Positions 36,782-44,875 are shown, counted from the first letter of the stretch. The stretch is DNA of 44,875 bases from a bacterium (GCA_041308645.1 JBFZBC010000005.1:1-44875), one strand, 5' to 3'. The notes: generated by a model not told the origin, from the sequence alone. Program-made: numbers and translations.

Positions 36782-36813
36782 AAAAAACCACGTCCTTGCG
36801 GAGGTGGTTTTTT
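36782..36813 (-). terminator. terminator after csp (bidirectional shape)
   Basis: ccacgtcc-ttgc-ggaggtgg stem flanked by an A run and a T run. Confidence 0.65.
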
Positions 36814-36849
36814 GTTTTGATAGTTATTGCAGGACGAACCTGCGAATAA

Positions 36850-37050
36850 TTATGCTTTGTTAACATTAACAGCTGCAGGACCCTTTGGGGTATCTTCAGT
36901 GTCAAATGATACAGCATCTCCTTCTCTTAGGTCAGCGAAAGCAACACCTGAAAGAGAATTGCTATGGAAGAATAAATCCTTCGCTAAGCCTTCTCCTGTG
37001 ATGAAGCCAAAACCTTTGTCAGAGACCAATTTTTTAATTGTACCGGTCAT
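36850..37050 (-). CDS. cspA: cold shock protein (CspA family)
   Basis: 66 aa. RNP1-like KGFGFI and RNP2-like region. Confidence 0.95.
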   Translation of the reverse strand: MTGTIKKLVSDKGFGFITGEGLAKDLFFHSNSLSGVAFADLREGDAVSFDTEDTPKGPAAVNVNKA

Positions 37051-37058
37051 TGATTTAC

Positions 37059-37142
37059 CCGTTAAAGTTTTAATTGATGGAAAATCAGAGATTTTCCTGG
37101 CATTAGGTTCAAAACCTAATGCGTCAGTTAAAATTTTTTCGG
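37059..37142. repeat. 84-nt three-stem structured element, copy 1 (inside the csp 5' UTR)
   Basis: P1 is 37059-37076 paired with 37125-37142. P2 is ggaaaatc-aga-gattttcc (37079-37097). P3 is g-cattaggtt-caa-aacctaatg-c (37100-37122). The second copy is at 44607-44690. Confidence 0.6.
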
Positions 37143-37229
37143 TTAATTAGTTTACTTAATAAAATACAAACGAATGTTATGTTTTAGAAAATGACTACTT
37201 TTCGAACCATACCTCTCTTTTGTAATTCA

Positions 37230-37258
37230 AGTATAGCATACTGTGTTATTCCTGTCAA
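37230..37258 (-). promoter_or_regulatory. sigma70-like promoter for csp (implies a ~170-nt 5' UTR)
   Basis: The minus strand reads TTGACA (37258-37253), 17-nt spacer, TATACT (37235-37230). Confidence 0.5.
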
Positions 37259-37280
37259 ATGGTAAAAGTGGATAAACCAC

Positions 37281-37309
37281 TTGACACTTATACTATTTTT
37301 GTTTAACAT
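37281..37309 (+). promoter_or_regulatory. possible promoter for rpoBC
   Basis: TTGACA (37281-37286), 17-nt spacer, TAACAT (37304-37309). It would give a ~280-nt leader. Confidence 0.3.
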
Positions 37310-37591
37310 AGTGTCACATTAGCAAGATTGAGTCACGGGGGAAAGATTTAGAAGTTATAATAATTTCACTTGCTTATCATAAGAAAAAGATAAATTTTAT
37401 CAAATTAAATGACGCCTTTGTCGGAGAGGTGTTTTTTGTCGTTTAGTGTGTTGATAAAGGAATAAATATAATCAAATTTTCTGCGCTTCACCCTTCCTGA
37501 GTATAGGTGGGTTCTATGCGACAAAAAATTTAACTATATTTCTTCCCTTAAAAAACAATTTATTAATTATTTTTAGAAGAAGAAAAAAGTT

Positions 37592-40500
37592 ATGAAATCA
37601 ATTATCAAAAGAGAGAAAAAATATTTTGGAAAGTTTAAGGCTCCTTTAATATCTAGTCCTAATATGGTTTCTCACCAAACAGAATCATTCAAGTGGTTAC
37701 TTGAAAAGGGTTTGGCCGAGGTTTTTAAAGAGTTTTCCCCAATTCGTGATTATGCTGAGAAAAAATTTGAGCTTTCTTTTTCTACTTTTGAGATTACTCA
37801 ACCAAAGTATGATGAACACTATGCTAAGGACAATAAAATATCCTACGAAGGTCAGTTAAAGGTTAAAGTAAAGTTAAAGAATAAGTTACTCAGCGTAGAT
37901 AAAGAGCAAGAGATTTTTTTAACTGATATTCCTCTAATAACGAATCATGGAACTTTTATTATAAATGGTATTGAAAGAGTAATTGTCCCTCAGCTAGCAC
38001 GTTCTTTCGGTATGTTTTTTACCTCAAATGAAATTAAAGGTAAAAGATATTTTGGAGCAAAAATTATACCTTCTCGAGGAGTCTGGATTGAAATTGAATC
38101 TGATGCGGATGATTTAATTTACGTTAAAATTGATAAAAAAAGAAAGTTTTCAATTACATCACTACTTAGGGTATTAGGTGCTACCGATAAGCAAATGTTG
38201 GAACATTTTAAGACCGATGAGTTATCCGCGAAAGCAATAGAAACAAATTTAGCTAAGGATCATGCTAAAACACTTGATGAATCATATATAGAAATTTATA
38301 AGAGACTTCGTGATGGTGATTTAGCTACTGCTGAAAATGCTAAAGAGTTTATCAACAGTATTTTTAATGCTGACCGTTATGATATTTCAAAGGTAGGACG
38401 TTTCCGTTTTAATAAAAGATTTGCTAAAAGTATGGACGTCAAGGAACTTGATCGTAAGACTATAAATCTAGATGACATTTTTACTATTATTTCAAAAGTA
38501 GTATCTCTTAATCATTATGAAGATGCTATTGAAGATGATATTGACCATTTAGGTTCAAGGCGTGTTCGTTTTGTCGGAGAACTTTTCCAAGCAAAAATAA
38601 GGATTGGAATGTCTCAAATGAAGAGAAATATTCAAGACAGAATGTCTACAGTGGAGCCAGATGTAACAATGCCGATTTCTTTTGTCTCTCCTCGACCACT
38701 CCAGGCTAGAATAAAGGAATTTTTTACCACCAACCAGCTATCACAGTTTATGCAGCAGGAAAATATTTTGCAGGAGATTGAACATCTTCGAACACTGTCA
38801 GCTCTAGGTCCAGGTGGTTTGACTAGAGAACGTGCTGGTTTCGAAGTTCGTGATGTACATCCATCACACTACGGCCGAGTCTGTCCGATCCACACACCTG
38901 AAGGACCAAACATTGGTTTGATCTTAAGACTTTCTGTTTACGCTAAAGTCAATGATTTTGGTATGATTGAAACTCCCTACGCTAAAGTAAAACATGGTGT
39001 TGTTACAAATGAAATAAAATATTTAAACGCTCTAGAGGAAGAAAATTTTAAAATTGCTCATGCCGCTACCCATACTGACGAGAAGAATAAAATAATTGAT
39101 GACGAGGTTGAGGTTCGTGTTAATGGGGAGCCAACTGTCGTTAAGAGTAATGAAGTGGACTTTATGGACGTGTCTACTAATCAAGCTTTTTCTATTGCAA
39201 CATCCATGATTCCGTTTCTAAATCACGATGATGCTAACCGAGCACTCATGGGTTCTAACATGCAGAAGCAGGCAGTACCATGTTTGAGACCAGAGGCACC
39301 ATTAGTGGCTACTGGTATTGAAGAGGAGGCGGCAAAGTATACTGGACGTTTGATTTATGCTGAAGAAGCGGGTGAGGTAACATACCTTGATTCAAAAAAA
39401 ATCATCATAACTAATGATAAAAATAAAGATAAAGAATATAATTTAATTCAATATTCTCGAACAAATAGTTTTACTGTTTTTCATCAAAGGCCGGTAGTTT
39501 CTTTTGGTCAGAAGGTAAAAAAGGGAGAACTTTTAGCTGATACTTCCTCATCTGATAAAGGTCAAACTTCAATCGGTCAAAATATTTTGATTGCCTTTAT
39601 GTCTTGGTCAGGTTCAAACTACGAAGATGCAATTATTCTTTCAGAGCGACTAGTAAAAGATAGCAAGTTTACCTCAATTCATATTGAAGAATTTGTTGTA
39701 AATGTTCGTGATACTAAACTTGGACCGGAAGTAACTACTCATGATATTCCAAACGTTGGTGAAGCTAAATTAAAAAACCTGGATGAAGACGGTATAATTA
39801 GGATTGGTGCTGAAGTGAGACCAGGAGATATTATTGTTGGTAAAATCACACCAAAGGGTGAGACCCAATTAACCCCAGAGGAAAGACTACTCCGATCAAT
39901 TTTTGGTGAGAAGGCACGAGATGTAAAAGATACTTCTAAGAGATTGGAAGGTGGTAAAAAAGGTAGAATAATTTCTGTTAAAGTATTTTCTCGAGAAAAG
40001 GGTGATAAGCTAGAGAGCGGTATAATAAAGAAAATTTATATTGAAGTAGCTGAACTTAGAAGTATTTCTGTTGGAGACAAGTTATCTGGACGACACGGAA
40101 ACAAGGGAGTTATTTCTAAAATATTACCAGAAGAGGATATGCCTTGTATGCCAGACGGTAGACCTGTAGATTTGATTTTAACTCCACTTGGTGTGCCTTC
40201 TCGTATGAATCTTGGACAAATTTTAGAATTACACTTAGGTTTAGCAGCCAATACTTTAGGCTATCAAGCAATTGTTCCACCGTTTGCTGGAGCAACTGAT
40301 GCGGAAATTAAAGCTGAACTTGTAAAAGCCGGTTTTAAGGAAAGTGGAAAGATGAAACTTTATGACGGACGAACAGGTGAAAAGTTTAATCAAGAGATTG
40401 CTGTTGGTTATATGTATATTTTGAAACTACACCATGAAGTAGAAGACAAAATCCATATGCGTTCTATTGGACCTTACTCACTTATTACCCAACAACCATT

Positions 40501-44590: not shown

Positions 44591-44875
44591 ATGAAAAATA
44601 ATTCACCCGAAAAAATTTTGACCGATGGAAAATCAGAGATTTTCCAGGTACCAGTAAAAAAAACTGGTACGTCGGTCAAAACTTTAACGGGTAAAAAAGG
44701 TTTCGTCGTCCCGCTTATAATCGCCATTGTTGCTATTATAGCGATTGGTGGTGAGTATTACATAATGAAGTCTAAAGGTCCATGTGCTTATCTTCATACT
44801 GGTTACAGAAATACCGAAACTGGATTATGTGAAGATTTTGGTAGCTGTGACAGAATACCAGTAAAGTATGTCAAA
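44591..44875 (+). CDS. hypothetical membrane-anchored protein, N-terminal fragment (runs off the window end)
   Basis: The ATG at 44591 opens MKNNSPEKILTDGKSEIFQVPVKKTGTSVKTLTGKKGFVVPLIIAIVAIIAIGG..., with one TM helix then a Cys-containing segment. The first ~33 codons overlap the structured repeat, so the start is uncertain. Confidence 0.4.
   Translation, partial: MKNNSPEKILTDGKSEIFQVPVKKTGTSVKTLTGKKGFVVPLIIAIVAIIAIGGEYYIMKSKGPCAYLHTGYRNTETGLCEDFGSCDRIPVKYVK
44607..44690. repeat. 84-nt three-stem structured element, copy 2 (downstream of rpoC)
   Basis: P1 is 44607-44624 paired with 44673-44690. P2 (44627-44645) is identical to copy 1. P3 is gtaccagt-aaaaaaa-actggtac (44648-44670). Confidence 0.6.

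What the first reader, a model, noticed from the sequence alone, without database searches (positions are those of the whole stretch)
37054..37146. Conserved 84-nt three-stem element with covariation, embedded in the cold-shock gene 5' UTR next to its start codon
Positions 37059-37142 fold by hand into three stems. P1 is an 18-position closing stem (37059-37076 with 37125-37142) with a 2x2 internal mismatch. P2 is an 8-bp hairpin ggaaaatc-aga-gattttcc. P3 is a 10-bp hairpin g-cattaggtt-caa-aacctaatg-c. A second copy of exactly the same length lies 7.5 kb away at 44607-44690. The 22-mer gatggaaaatcagagattttcc is identical in both copies. P3 has a completely different sequence in copy 2 (gtaccagt-aaaaaaa-actggtac) but is again a perfect hairpin. 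The inner 5 bp of P1 change in a compensatory way (aattg/cagtt versus gaccg/cggtc). Structure kept while sequence changes is the classic signature of selection on a fold. This copy lies in the predicted ~170-nt csp 5' UTR (promoter 37230-37258), and P1 ends 8 nt from the csp ATG. No Shine-Dalgarno sequence is visible there. The fold could therefore gate translation initiation; temperature-sensing 5' UTRs are established for E. coli cspA.
Basis: partly seen in the sequence, partly recalled or inferred. Interest (0 to 1): 0.6.

Follow-up and report, generated by a model that had tools for sequence, protein, structure and literature searches.

The report
Mobile DNA hairpin inserted before csp
The three-stem fold in front of the cold-shock gene is real, but it is a recently inserted copy of a small mobile DNA hairpin, which in these ultra-small bacteria also sits after stop codons and in frame inside genes and shares its arms with a tiny nuclease gene; it is not a purpose-built temperature switch.

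Summary
Both copies exist as described and fold into the same three-way junction (z about -8). Across 71 copies from 18 genomes the pairing is kept through many compensatory changes (25 of 36 pairs; 0 of 500 shuffles reach this).

The interpretation as a csp thermosensor does not hold.
- The element is precisely absent from the same csp leader in 11 of 11 sister species that I aligned.
- Copy 2 lies inside the first codons of the gene after rpoC, as an in-frame 93-nt insert. Other copies follow the tuf and clpP stop codons.
- 13 of 71 relatives are read through in frame inside housekeeping genes, like Rickettsia palindromic elements.
- The interior flips in place between the arms.
- The same arms close 13-15 hairpins in this 614-kb genome. 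One of them encloses an 89-aa GIY-YIG nuclease gene. 17 of 18 close homologues of that gene carry the same arms.

RNA-library contigs do show the element within a csp leader that ends at the predicted start site. An incidental effect on csp is therefore possible but untested.

The closest published system is the Ssn nuclease family with its hairpin repeats (2025). This scan has noted the same kind of GIY-YIG hairpin element before, on other genomes.

The parts
37054..37146 (-). Copy 1 of the three-stem hairpin element, about 92 nt. The arms read A-end to B-end on the csp-sense (minus) strand. The interior (P2 and P3) is inverted relative to the arms compared with the other copies in this genome.
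   Evidence: Folds. CM score 96.5 bits. Precisely absent in 11 of 11 aligned congeneric loci. Covered by RNA-library contigs 36918/36920-37223.
44600..44695 (+). Copy 2 of the element. It is inserted in frame (+93 nt, +31 aa) after codon 3 of the gene downstream of rpoC.
   Evidence: CM score 109.3 bits. Sister species G014, G004, G015 and G003 have the uninterrupted gene start.
36850..37050 (-). csp gene (66 aa, cold-shock domain).
   Evidence: ORF list. Pfam CSD match, E 1.1e-19.
37230..37258 (-). Promoter-like site of csp (TTGACA, 17 nt, TATACT, with TG before the -10). It implies a start near 37223 and a leader of about 173 nt, which would be about 80 nt without the element.
   Evidence: 11 of 12 matches. 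RNA-library contigs of two runs both end at 37223. The region is conserved in sister species.
44591..44875 (+). Start of a membrane-anchored, Cys-rich protein gene that carries copy 2 in its N-terminal tail. The gene continues on contig C25, which overlaps by 121 nt.

Best explanation
The element is a gene-less (non-autonomous) copy of a small mobile DNA hairpin.

Shown:
- It is a dispersed family. A conserved closing stem (A-end CACCCGAAAAAATTTT, B-end AAAACTTTAACGGGTAAA) encloses interchangeable interiors.
- Copies are insertions, because orthologous sites in sister species are empty.
- The family lands at gene boundaries and, in one reading frame, inside genes.
- The same arms enclose a small GIY-YIG nuclease gene.
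- The interior can flip in place between the arms.
- The csp copy is present in RNA libraries together with the csp leader.

Inferred:
- The hairpin is recognised as folded single-stranded DNA by the GIY-YIG nuclease, by analogy with the Ssn nucleases, which cut single-stranded DNA next to their hairpin repeats. Copies that keep the hairpin stay mobile. This gives covariation without any host function.
- In the csp mRNA the stem (about -27 kcal/mol, ending 7-8 nt before the ATG) is a passenger. It may incidentally change translation or be cut by the genome's RNase III, as happens with Correia elements.
For: Family in this genome:
- Pattern and fold scans find 13 hairpins with both arms, plus 2 with a degenerate 5' arm, in 614 kb. 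They range from 35 to 299 nt and have five kinds of interior.
- The covariance model R1 finds 5 full three-stem copies (96-111 bits) and the arm-only copies at weaker scores.

Insertion (empty orthologous sites):
- csp leader: 11 of 11 aligned.
- Gene after rpoC: 4 of 4.
- After clpP: 4 of 4 lack it. After tuf: 4 of 5 are empty, and the fifth holds a different palindrome.
- All four resolved sites have a host TAA at the left end and ...CGGGTAA at the right end.

Patchy spread:
- 12 of 41 relatives have a match at E<=0.01, all in one family. 0 of 16 other families of the order have one.
- 20 of 53 family genomes match at E<=1e-8, but only 1 of 15 other genomes of the same genus.

In-frame copies:
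- 13 of 71 copies are read through inside long ORFs, always as ..SPEKIL(P/T)DGKS.IF..KTL.G... The genes include LeuRS-, Fpg-, RluD- and TypA-like genes.

Flip in place:
- One orthologous insertion in a flavoprotein gene has the interior in one sense in G062 and G059 and in the opposite sense in G054. The arms are unchanged.

Nuclease link:
- C23:5464-5762 holds an 89-aa ORF (Pfam GIY-YIG, E 3.4e-15) between the same arms. The last codons and the stop codon lie in the B-end.
- C12:17717-17846 is a deletion derivative of that cassette.
- 17 of 18 close homologues in 12 genomes are bracketed by the arm family. The inverted-repeat score is 12-16, against 6-7 for shuffled controls.
- G018's variant arms (CCCT...AGGG) are shared by its nuclease gene and its three-stem copies.
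- 11 of 12 genomes with the close nuclease have model hits, against 9 of 41 without it. Related genomes are not independent samples.

Transcription. RNase III gene present.
Against: - No transposition event or intermediate was observed. Mobility is inferred from empty sites and patchiness alone.
- GIY-YIG enzymes are nucleases, not known transposases, and no joining activity is identified.
- 9 genomes carry hairpins without a close nuclease gene. G022, for example, has about 12 near-identical copies and only C-terminal gene remnants.
- The target site is unclear. TAA flanks all four resolved sites, but in-gene copies have no TAA, so a target duplication cannot be called.
- The three-stem interior shares only the arms with the nuclease cassette.
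- Very strong conservation of P2 and of the base of P3 across five genera could reflect a function beyond mobility.
- RNA-library contigs cannot exclude DNA carry-over and give no strand.
Confidence: 0.8

Rival explanations
1. One reading: an evolved cis-regulatory RNA in the csp leader that gates translation initiation, perhaps as a thermosensor.
For: - It lies in the leader 7-8 nt from the ATG and is stably folded.
- It is present in RNA libraries together with the leader.
- The structure is conserved with covariation.
Against: - It is absent from the same, otherwise conserved, leader in 11 of 11 aligned sister species.
- The same element occurs in coding sequence and after stop codons.
- The csp-sense strand is the weaker fold (-26.6 against -37.4 kcal/mol) and carries the interior in antisense relative to most copies.
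- The start codon is not inside the fold.
- Absence of a Shine-Dalgarno sequence is genome-wide.
Confidence: 0.04
2. Host-kept target sites. The hairpins are cleavage or binding sites of an Ssn-like single-strand nuclease and serve the cell, for example by modulating DNA uptake or recombination as NTS repeats do in Neisseria. They would spread by recombination, not by transposition.
For: - Nuclease gene and hairpin co-occur, and their arms co-vary per genome.
- Published precedent: I read the abstract, sections 6, 7 and 10, and search passages of PMC11893778.
- P2 is strongly conserved.
Against: - Copy numbers are low (0 to about 12 per genome) and very patchy, even within a genus.
- Copies disrupt leaders and sit inside essential genes.
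- Hairpins persist where the nuclease gene is decayed or not found.
Confidence: 0.1
3. An RNA-level module, such as an RNase III processing or stabilising hairpin between genes, that has been copied around because it is useful in transcripts.
For: - Many copies sit exactly between a stop and a start codon.
- The closing helix is about 19-20 bp long.
- An RNase III gene is present.
- The csp copy is transcribed.
Against: - The interior occurs in both senses relative to arms and genes, even at one orthologous site.
- Copies are tolerated as peptide inserts in proteins.
- G-U and A-C departures show no strand preference outside two fixed positions.
- The arms enclose a nuclease gene.
Confidence: 0.05
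4. REPIN-like repeats moved by one of the genome's RAYT-like Y1 transposases.
For: Four Y1_Tnp-family genes of about 230 aa exist in the genome.
Against: Each of the four is flanked by its own, different palindrome. None (0 of 4) has the CCCG-type arms within 400 nt.
Confidence: 0.02

Closest known systems
Ssn single-strand-specific GIY-YIG nucleases with NTS/SRM hairpin repeats (Chenal et al. 2025, Nat Commun, PMC11893778; I read the abstract, sections 6, 7 and 10, and search passages)
   Same: - A single-domain GIY-YIG protein of about 90 aa.
- Its gene is flanked by hairpin-forming repeats that are also dispersed through the genome.
- Repeat variants go with the nuclease variant.
- The authors themselves note that the repeat-gene-repeat layout looks like an insertion sequence.
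   Different: - Here the two flanks are the two halves of one long hairpin that closes over the gene, and the 3' half encodes the last codons and the stop.
- The repeat sequence is different.
- Copy numbers are tens, not hundreds.
- Gene-less copies carry structured interiors (the three-way junction) and insert in frame in genes.
- The paper's text does not mention Patescibacteria (0 occurrences).
- Membership of the cd10448 clade could not be tested. The nearest solved relatives are UPF0213 proteins, at a weak E of about 1e-4.
Rickettsia palindromic elements (as summarised in the MITE review PMC10969869; passages read)
   Same: - Palindromic repeats of about 100-150 bp.
- They are inserted in frame in unrelated housekeeping genes and encode a conserved peptide.
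   Different: - Unrelated sequence and host.
- Here the family is tied to a nuclease gene and also occupies leaders and stop/start junctions.
Correia repeat-enclosed elements of Neisseria (review PMC10969869, passages)
   Same: - A MITE with terminal inverted repeats next to genes.
- It is co-transcribed, its stem is cut by RNase III, and it is reported to invert in place.
   Different: - Correia elements have 26-bp repeats, a TA duplication, promoters and an IHF site.
- None of these were shown here, and there is no sequence relation.
REPINs mobilised by RAYT (Y1/HUH) transposases
   Same: - Hairpin-forming repeat doublets are dispersed in intergenic DNA.
- The same repeats flank the gene of the enzyme thought to move them.
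- Recognition is by structure, which gives covariation.
   Different: - The associated gene is a GIY-YIG nuclease, not a Y1 transposase.
- The genome's four Y1 genes have other palindromes.
E. coli cspA 5' UTR thermosensor (recalled, not looked up here)
   Same: A long structured leader in front of a cold-shock gene.
   Different: - The cspA leader is an intrinsic, conserved part of the gene.
- This element is a lineage-specific insertion shared with unrelated genes.

Membership tests
csp-leader RNA thermosensor / cis-regulatory leader | Conserved in the orthologous leader of related species | tested here: not met
   Absent in 11 of 11 aligned congeneric csp leaders, while both flanks are 74-95% identical.
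csp-leader RNA thermosensor / cis-regulatory leader | Specific to the regulated gene | tested here: not met
   There are 5 copies in this genome: in the csp leader, inside a coding sequence, after tuf, after clpP, and on C44.
csp-leader RNA thermosensor / cis-regulatory leader | Temperature-dependent refolding that exposes or hides the start region | not testable with these tools
   The fold ends 7-8 nt before the ATG and does not include it. No probing was possible.
MITE (non-autonomous inverted-repeat element) | Small, non-coding, with terminal inverted repeats, in several copies | tested here: met
   About 92 nt with 19-20-bp arms. There are 5 three-stem copies and 13-15 arm-sharing hairpins in 614 kb.
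MITE (non-autonomous inverted-repeat element) | Presence/absence at orthologous sites | tested here: met
   Four loci have empty sites in sister species.
MITE (non-autonomous inverted-repeat element) | Target-site duplication | tested here: inconclusive
   TAA lies at both borders in 4 of 4 resolved sites, but the right-hand TAA is also the conserved element end. In-gene copies lack TAA.
MITE (non-autonomous inverted-repeat element) | Ends shared with an autonomous element that encodes the mobilising enzyme | tested here: inconclusive
   The ends are shared with the GIY-YIG cassette (17 of 18 close homologues). Whether that nuclease mobilises anything is unknown.
Ssn nuclease / SRM repeat system | Single-domain GIY-YIG protein of about 90-100 aa | tested here: met
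   89 aa, with PF01541 covering residues 2-71 (E 3.4e-15).
Ssn nuclease / SRM repeat system | [quoted passage not shown] | not testable with these tools
   No CDD library is available here. NCBIfam gives only a sub-threshold intron-endonuclease hit. The best PDB matches are UPF0213 proteins, E 2e-4 and 7e-4.
Ssn nuclease / SRM repeat system | Complete hairpin repeats on both sides of the gene, and many copies elsewhere | tested here: inconclusive
   The repeat halves flank the gene but pair with each other across it. The number of dispersed copies is modest.
Ssn nuclease / SRM repeat system | Site-specific cutting of single-stranded DNA next to the hairpin | not testable with these tools
   This needs a biochemical assay.
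REPIN/RAYT | Repeats flank a Y1 (HUH) transposase gene | tested here: not met
   0 of 4 Y1_Tnp genes have these arms nearby. Each has another palindrome.
Rfam families | Match to a curated covariance model | tested here: not met
   No hit on the element at gathering score over the whole window, nor at E<=1 over 36800-37600.

The most novel reading that the evidence does not exclude
The three-stem hairpin is the passive partner of an undescribed class of minimal mobile element in ultra-small bacteria. The class is driven by an ~89-aa GIY-YIG nuclease that recognises a folded single-stranded DNA hairpin. That would make it a hairpin-guided mobility system distinct from the HUH-type systems (IS200/IS605, RAYT). 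Its gene-less copies are shaped so that one frame stays open, which lets them live inside essential genes, and their interiors flip in place.
Probability: 0.4. Interest if true: 0.75.

Novelty: new variant of a known kind. Interest (0 to 1): 0.5.

Why it matters
- It corrects a tempting misreading. Strong covariation next to a start codon looks like a riboswitch or thermometer, yet here it is the signature of a selfish DNA hairpin.
- If the nuclease link is functional, these tiny genomes host a very small mobile element (one 89-codon gene inside one hairpin). Its passive copies reshape leaders, operon junctions and even protein sequences of essential genes.
- That bears on how streamlined genomes still gain variation. 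It also extends the newly described Ssn-type nucleases to a new architecture and lineage.
- The csp copy gives a natural test case, with and without the element in sister species, for what such an insertion does to expression.

Tried and rejected
- Rfam: no family matches the element.
- Integron attC reading: considered because of the GTTAAAG/CTTTAAC-like boxes. Dropped because the copies are scattered among core genes and not in an array. I did not search for an integrase.
- Shine-Dalgarno reading of the B-end (GGGT): dropped. The genome hardly uses such motifs (20 of 319 long ORFs, GGGT in 3, crude ORF set). I could not find the usual 16S 3' tail by short recalled motifs, so the anti-SD sequence remains unknown.
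- Orientation of copies relative to flanking genes: my arm-type classifier was unreliable for diverged copies (30 AB, 14 BA, 27 unclassed under strict rules). I make no claim of orientation bias.
- Gene starts within 45 nt of an end were seen for 33 of 71 copies. In such compact genomes this is expected for any intergenic insert, and I ran no control.
- Strand preference from G-U versus A-C departures: none outside two fixed positions.
- RAYT link: rejected.
- P2 as an independent repeat: only the three-stem copies carry it.
- Literature searches for this element in print found nothing that describes it: 'GIY-YIG' with 'miniature inverted-repeat', 'GIY-YIG' with 'Patescibacteria', and 'Candidate Phyla Radiation' with palindromic/repeat/intergenic/mobile. 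I read only the listings and abstract starts of those hits.
- Parts of the laid stretch without RNA cover (for example csp 36850-36917) are not interpreted.

Full report

Yes.
- Both copies fold into a three-way junction. Copy 1 reaches -37.4 kcal/mol on the + strand (z -8.1) and -26.6 on the csp-sense strand (z -6.0). Copy 2 reaches -41.4 (z -8.8) and -48.6 (z -10.8). None of 200 shuffles folds as well in any of these.
- The 22-mer around P2 is identical in the two copies. P3 differs but is perfect in both. The inner P1 pairs change in a compensatory way.
- The P2 pattern occurs twice in the window against 0.02 expected.
- Rfam has no family for it, at gathering score over the whole window or at E<=1 over 36800-37600.

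**2. The element is not specific to csp.**

A pattern search of the window's own genome (614 kb, 45 contigs) found a third copy after clpP. A scan for the two outer arms then showed a family.
- 13 loci have the A-end (CACCCGAAAAAATTTT) and the B-end (AAAACTTTAACGGGTAAA) paired as the closing stem of a hairpin. Two more have a degenerate 5' arm.
- The interior between the arms varies. It ranges from a 3-7-nt loop (35-44-nt hairpins on C13, C18, C20, C21), through the three-stem interior (5 copies: the two in the window, C28, C42, C44) and other 110-130-nt interiors, to 299 nt.
- The minimal hairpins show an A-U to C-G exchange in the arm.
- A covariance model built from the five three-stem copies scores them at 96-111 bits. 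It finds the arm-only members at weaker scores.

**3. The copies are insertions.**

I searched the 15 other genomes of the genus with the flanks of four copies.
- *csp leader.* csp and the upstream leader are 74-95% identical in the relatives, and the two blocks abut. All 11 loci that I aligned lack the ~92 nt exactly. The relatives read ...TAATCTA|AAATCAATG. The window reads ...AAACTAA[TTAACCG...AACGGG]TAAATCAATG.
- *Copy 2.* The gene after rpoC starts ATGAAAAATCAAAAAGGTTTCGTC in G014 (MKNQKGFVIPL..., then a membrane helix). In the window the element sits after codon 3 and is read through in frame. It adds 93 nt, or 31 aa. G014, G004, G015 and G003 have the uninterrupted form.
- *After clpP.* G015, G013, G004 and G010 lack the element.
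- *After tuf.* G003, G014, G008 and G004 are empty. G010 has a different palindromic insert at the same spot.
- *Target site.* In all four resolved sites a host TAA lies at the left border and ...CGGGTAA at the right. This fits either a 3-bp duplication or insertion just 3' of TAA. It cannot be decided, and in-gene copies have no TAA.

**4. Spread is patchy.**
- The model finds matches (E<=0.01) in 12 of 41 genomes of the order, counting the own genome. All are in one family. 0 of 16 other families have a match.
- In 53 genomes of that family, 20 have matches at E<=1e-8. By genus, without the own genome: 1 of 15, 13 of 26, 2 of 3, 1 of 2, 2 of 2 and 0 of 4.
- Copy number runs from none to about a dozen.

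**5. The fold is truly conserved.**

I fetched all best-strand matches of 50 bits or more, giving 71 distinct copies from 18 genomes.
- On a MAFFT alignment not fitted to any structure, counted with a structure I wrote from the fold, 92.5% of cells pair, against 82.4 +/- 0.4 in shuffles.
- 25 of 36 pairs show changes on both sides, against 17.0 +/- 1.6.
- The covariation score is 0.308, against 0.133 in shuffles and 0.053-0.077 with slid partners. 0 of 500 shuffles reach any observed value.
- P3 varies at all 9 pairs. P2 and the base of P3 are the most conserved in sequence.
- The model-fitted alignment gives the same picture: 93.8% paired and 24 of 34 pairs with double changes.
- These controls do not fully remove relatedness. 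A phylogeny-aware test remains to be done.

**6. Copies live inside genes.**

13 of the 71 copies are read through in frame within long open frames (at least 30 codons open on each side).
- They always use the same element frame, giving ..SPEKIL(P/T)DGKS.IF..(9-11 aa)..KTL.G...
- From motifs that I recognise (no domain search was run), the hosts look like leucyl-tRNA synthetase, a TypA/EF-like GTPase, an RluD-like pseudouridine synthase, Fpg and an HI0933-like flavoprotein.
- Copy 2 of the window is a 14th case.
- This is the behaviour described for Rickettsia palindromic elements (review PMC10969869, passages).

**7. The interior flips in place.**
- In the window's csp copy the arms read A to B on the csp-sense strand, but P2 and P3 lie in the opposite sense to the other four copies of the genome.
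- With strict arm patterns, 30 of 71 copies have one arrangement, 14 the other, and 27 are too diverged to call.
- The same orthologous insertion in the flavoprotein gene has the interior in one sense in G062 and G059 and inverted in G054, with identical arm orientation. The inversion therefore happens after insertion, most simply by recombination between the ~20-bp arms.
- In-place inversion is also reported for Correia elements.
- This argues against a strand-specific RNA role for the interior.

**8. The link to a nuclease gene.**
- The 299-nt member on C23 encloses an 89-aa ORF with a GIY-YIG domain (Pfam E 3.4e-15). The start codon lies 12 nt inside the 5' arm. The last codons and the TAA stop are written in the B-end.
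- The 130-nt member on C12 is a deletion derivative that keeps the last 51 codons.
- Close homologues (E<=1e-25) occur in 12 of 53 genomes of the family. 17 of the 18 genes are bracketed by the same arm family, with an inverted-repeat score of 12-16 against 6-7 for shuffled tails. In 11 of 18 the ...GGGTAA is followed at once by the ATG of the next gene.
- More distant paralogues mostly carry their own complementary 5'/3' arms. By eye this holds for about 14 of the 20 loci printed.
- Arm variants go together within a genome. G018's CCCT...AGGG form is found both around its (broken) nuclease gene and in its three-stem copies.
- 11 of the 12 genomes with the close nuclease have model hits, against 9 of the 41 without. 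Kin are not independent, so I give no P value.
- Nine genomes have hairpins but no close nuclease gene. This is expected for passive copies but is also a gap in the argument.

**9. What is known.**
- The published system closest to this is the Ssn family (PMC11893778; I read the abstract, sections 6, 7 and 10, and search passages). These are single-domain GIY-YIG proteins of about 94 aa that cut single-stranded DNA next to hairpin repeats. The repeats flank their own gene and are dispersed in the genome. The authors remark that the repeat-gene-repeat layout resembles an insertion sequence.
- The differences here are these:
  - One hairpin closes over the whole gene.
  - The 3' arm is coding.
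  - The repeat is different.
  - The passive copies carry structured interiors and enter genes in frame.
- I could not test membership of the cd10448 clade. NCBIfam gives only a sub-threshold hit, and the nearest solved structures are UPF0213 proteins at weak E-values.
- The genome also has four RAYT-like Y1 transposase genes. Each is flanked by its own different palindrome, and none has these arms.
- My three literature searches found no description of this element in candidate-phyla bacteria (listings only).
- Earlier notes of this scan describe the same kind of hairpin-bounded GIY-YIG cassette with gene-less copies in other genomes. I had reached the nuclease link independently. I took from those notes the pointer to the Ssn paper, which I then read.

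**10. What it does at csp.**
- Contigs from two metatranscriptome runs of one study cover 36920-37223 and 36918-37223. That is the first ~44 codons of csp, the whole element and the leader. Both stop at 37223, 7 nt after the -10 box, while DNA runs continue.
- Contigs give no strand, and DNA carry-over cannot be excluded. I read this as moderate support that the element is part of a ~173-nt csp leader, which would be about 80 nt in the sister species.
- The csp-sense fold (-26.6 kcal/mol) ends 7-8 nt before the ATG and does not include it.
- The genome makes little use of Shine-Dalgarno motifs (20 of 319 long ORFs, with A-rich upstream regions, crude ORF set). The sister leaders lack one too. 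The missing motif is therefore not a clue.
- An RNase III gene is present, so cutting of the ~20-bp stem, as in Correia-bearing transcripts, is possible.
- All effects on csp remain untested. An evolved thermosensor is very unlikely given sections 2-7.

**11. Verdict.**
- The functional reading is replaced. This is a passive copy of a mobile DNA hairpin of the GIY-YIG-associated kind, newly inserted in the csp leader, with a sister copy inserted in frame in the next operon's first gene.
- Shown: family, insertion, patchiness, in-frame tolerance, in-place inversion, shared arms with the nuclease cassette, and presence in RNA libraries.
- Inferred: mobilisation by the nuclease through single-stranded hairpins, and any effect on csp.

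Noticed in passing
window 37449-37569: A second, unrelated long hairpin lies between the csp promoter region and rpoB. The minus strand folds at -43 kcal/mol (z -8.5). It is single-copy in this genome, but 56-110-nt stretches of it match about ten loci each in sister genomes G011 and G004. It gives weak miRNA-precursor-like Rfam hits only. An RNA-library contig covers 37419-37569. It looks like another mobile palindrome family.
   Followed up: partly
G000 C30:1298-1990, C2:369-638, C10:9625-10320, C9:4209-4358: Four RAYT-like Y1 transposase genes of about 230 aa. Each is flanked on both sides by its own perfect palindrome, and the palindromes differ from each other and from the arms studied here.
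   Followed up: partly
L197 (G010:C2, just after the tuf stop codon): At the very site where this genome carries a three-stem copy after tuf, sister genome G010 carries a different ~125-nt inverted-repeat insert. The site seems to attract hairpin insertions.
   Followed up: no
window 44755-44875 with G000:C25:1-121; G000:C28:1-121 with C21:1-121 (reverse strand): Contig ends overlap by 121 identical bases. C5 therefore continues into C25, and C28 joins C21.
   Followed up: partly
G000 genome-wide; 16S gene at C3:10890-12410: Start codons are preceded by A-rich, G-poor sequence. Only 20 of 319 long ORFs have an SD-like 4-mer. Short recalled motifs of the usual 16S 3' tail were not found near the end of the 16S match.
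   Followed up: partly
G000 C43:5266-5475, C34:5048-5266, C39:8674-8754: Further small GIY-YIG reading frames exist in the genome. One has a TGA inside and one a TAG inside. Their flanks were not examined for arms.
   Followed up: no
window 37212-37348: One RNA-library contig of run X3 covers 37212-37348 with a 14-letter loose end at 37212. It overlaps the csp promoter, and a + strand promoter-like site lies at 37281-37309. This is possibly a divergent or antisense transcript.
   Followed up: no
L018, L121, L128, L131, L133, L153 and others (relatives): Orthologous in-frame insertions of the element are kept in the same housekeeping gene across several genomes of genus g2. The peptide insert has therefore been tolerated over speciation.
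   Followed up: partly
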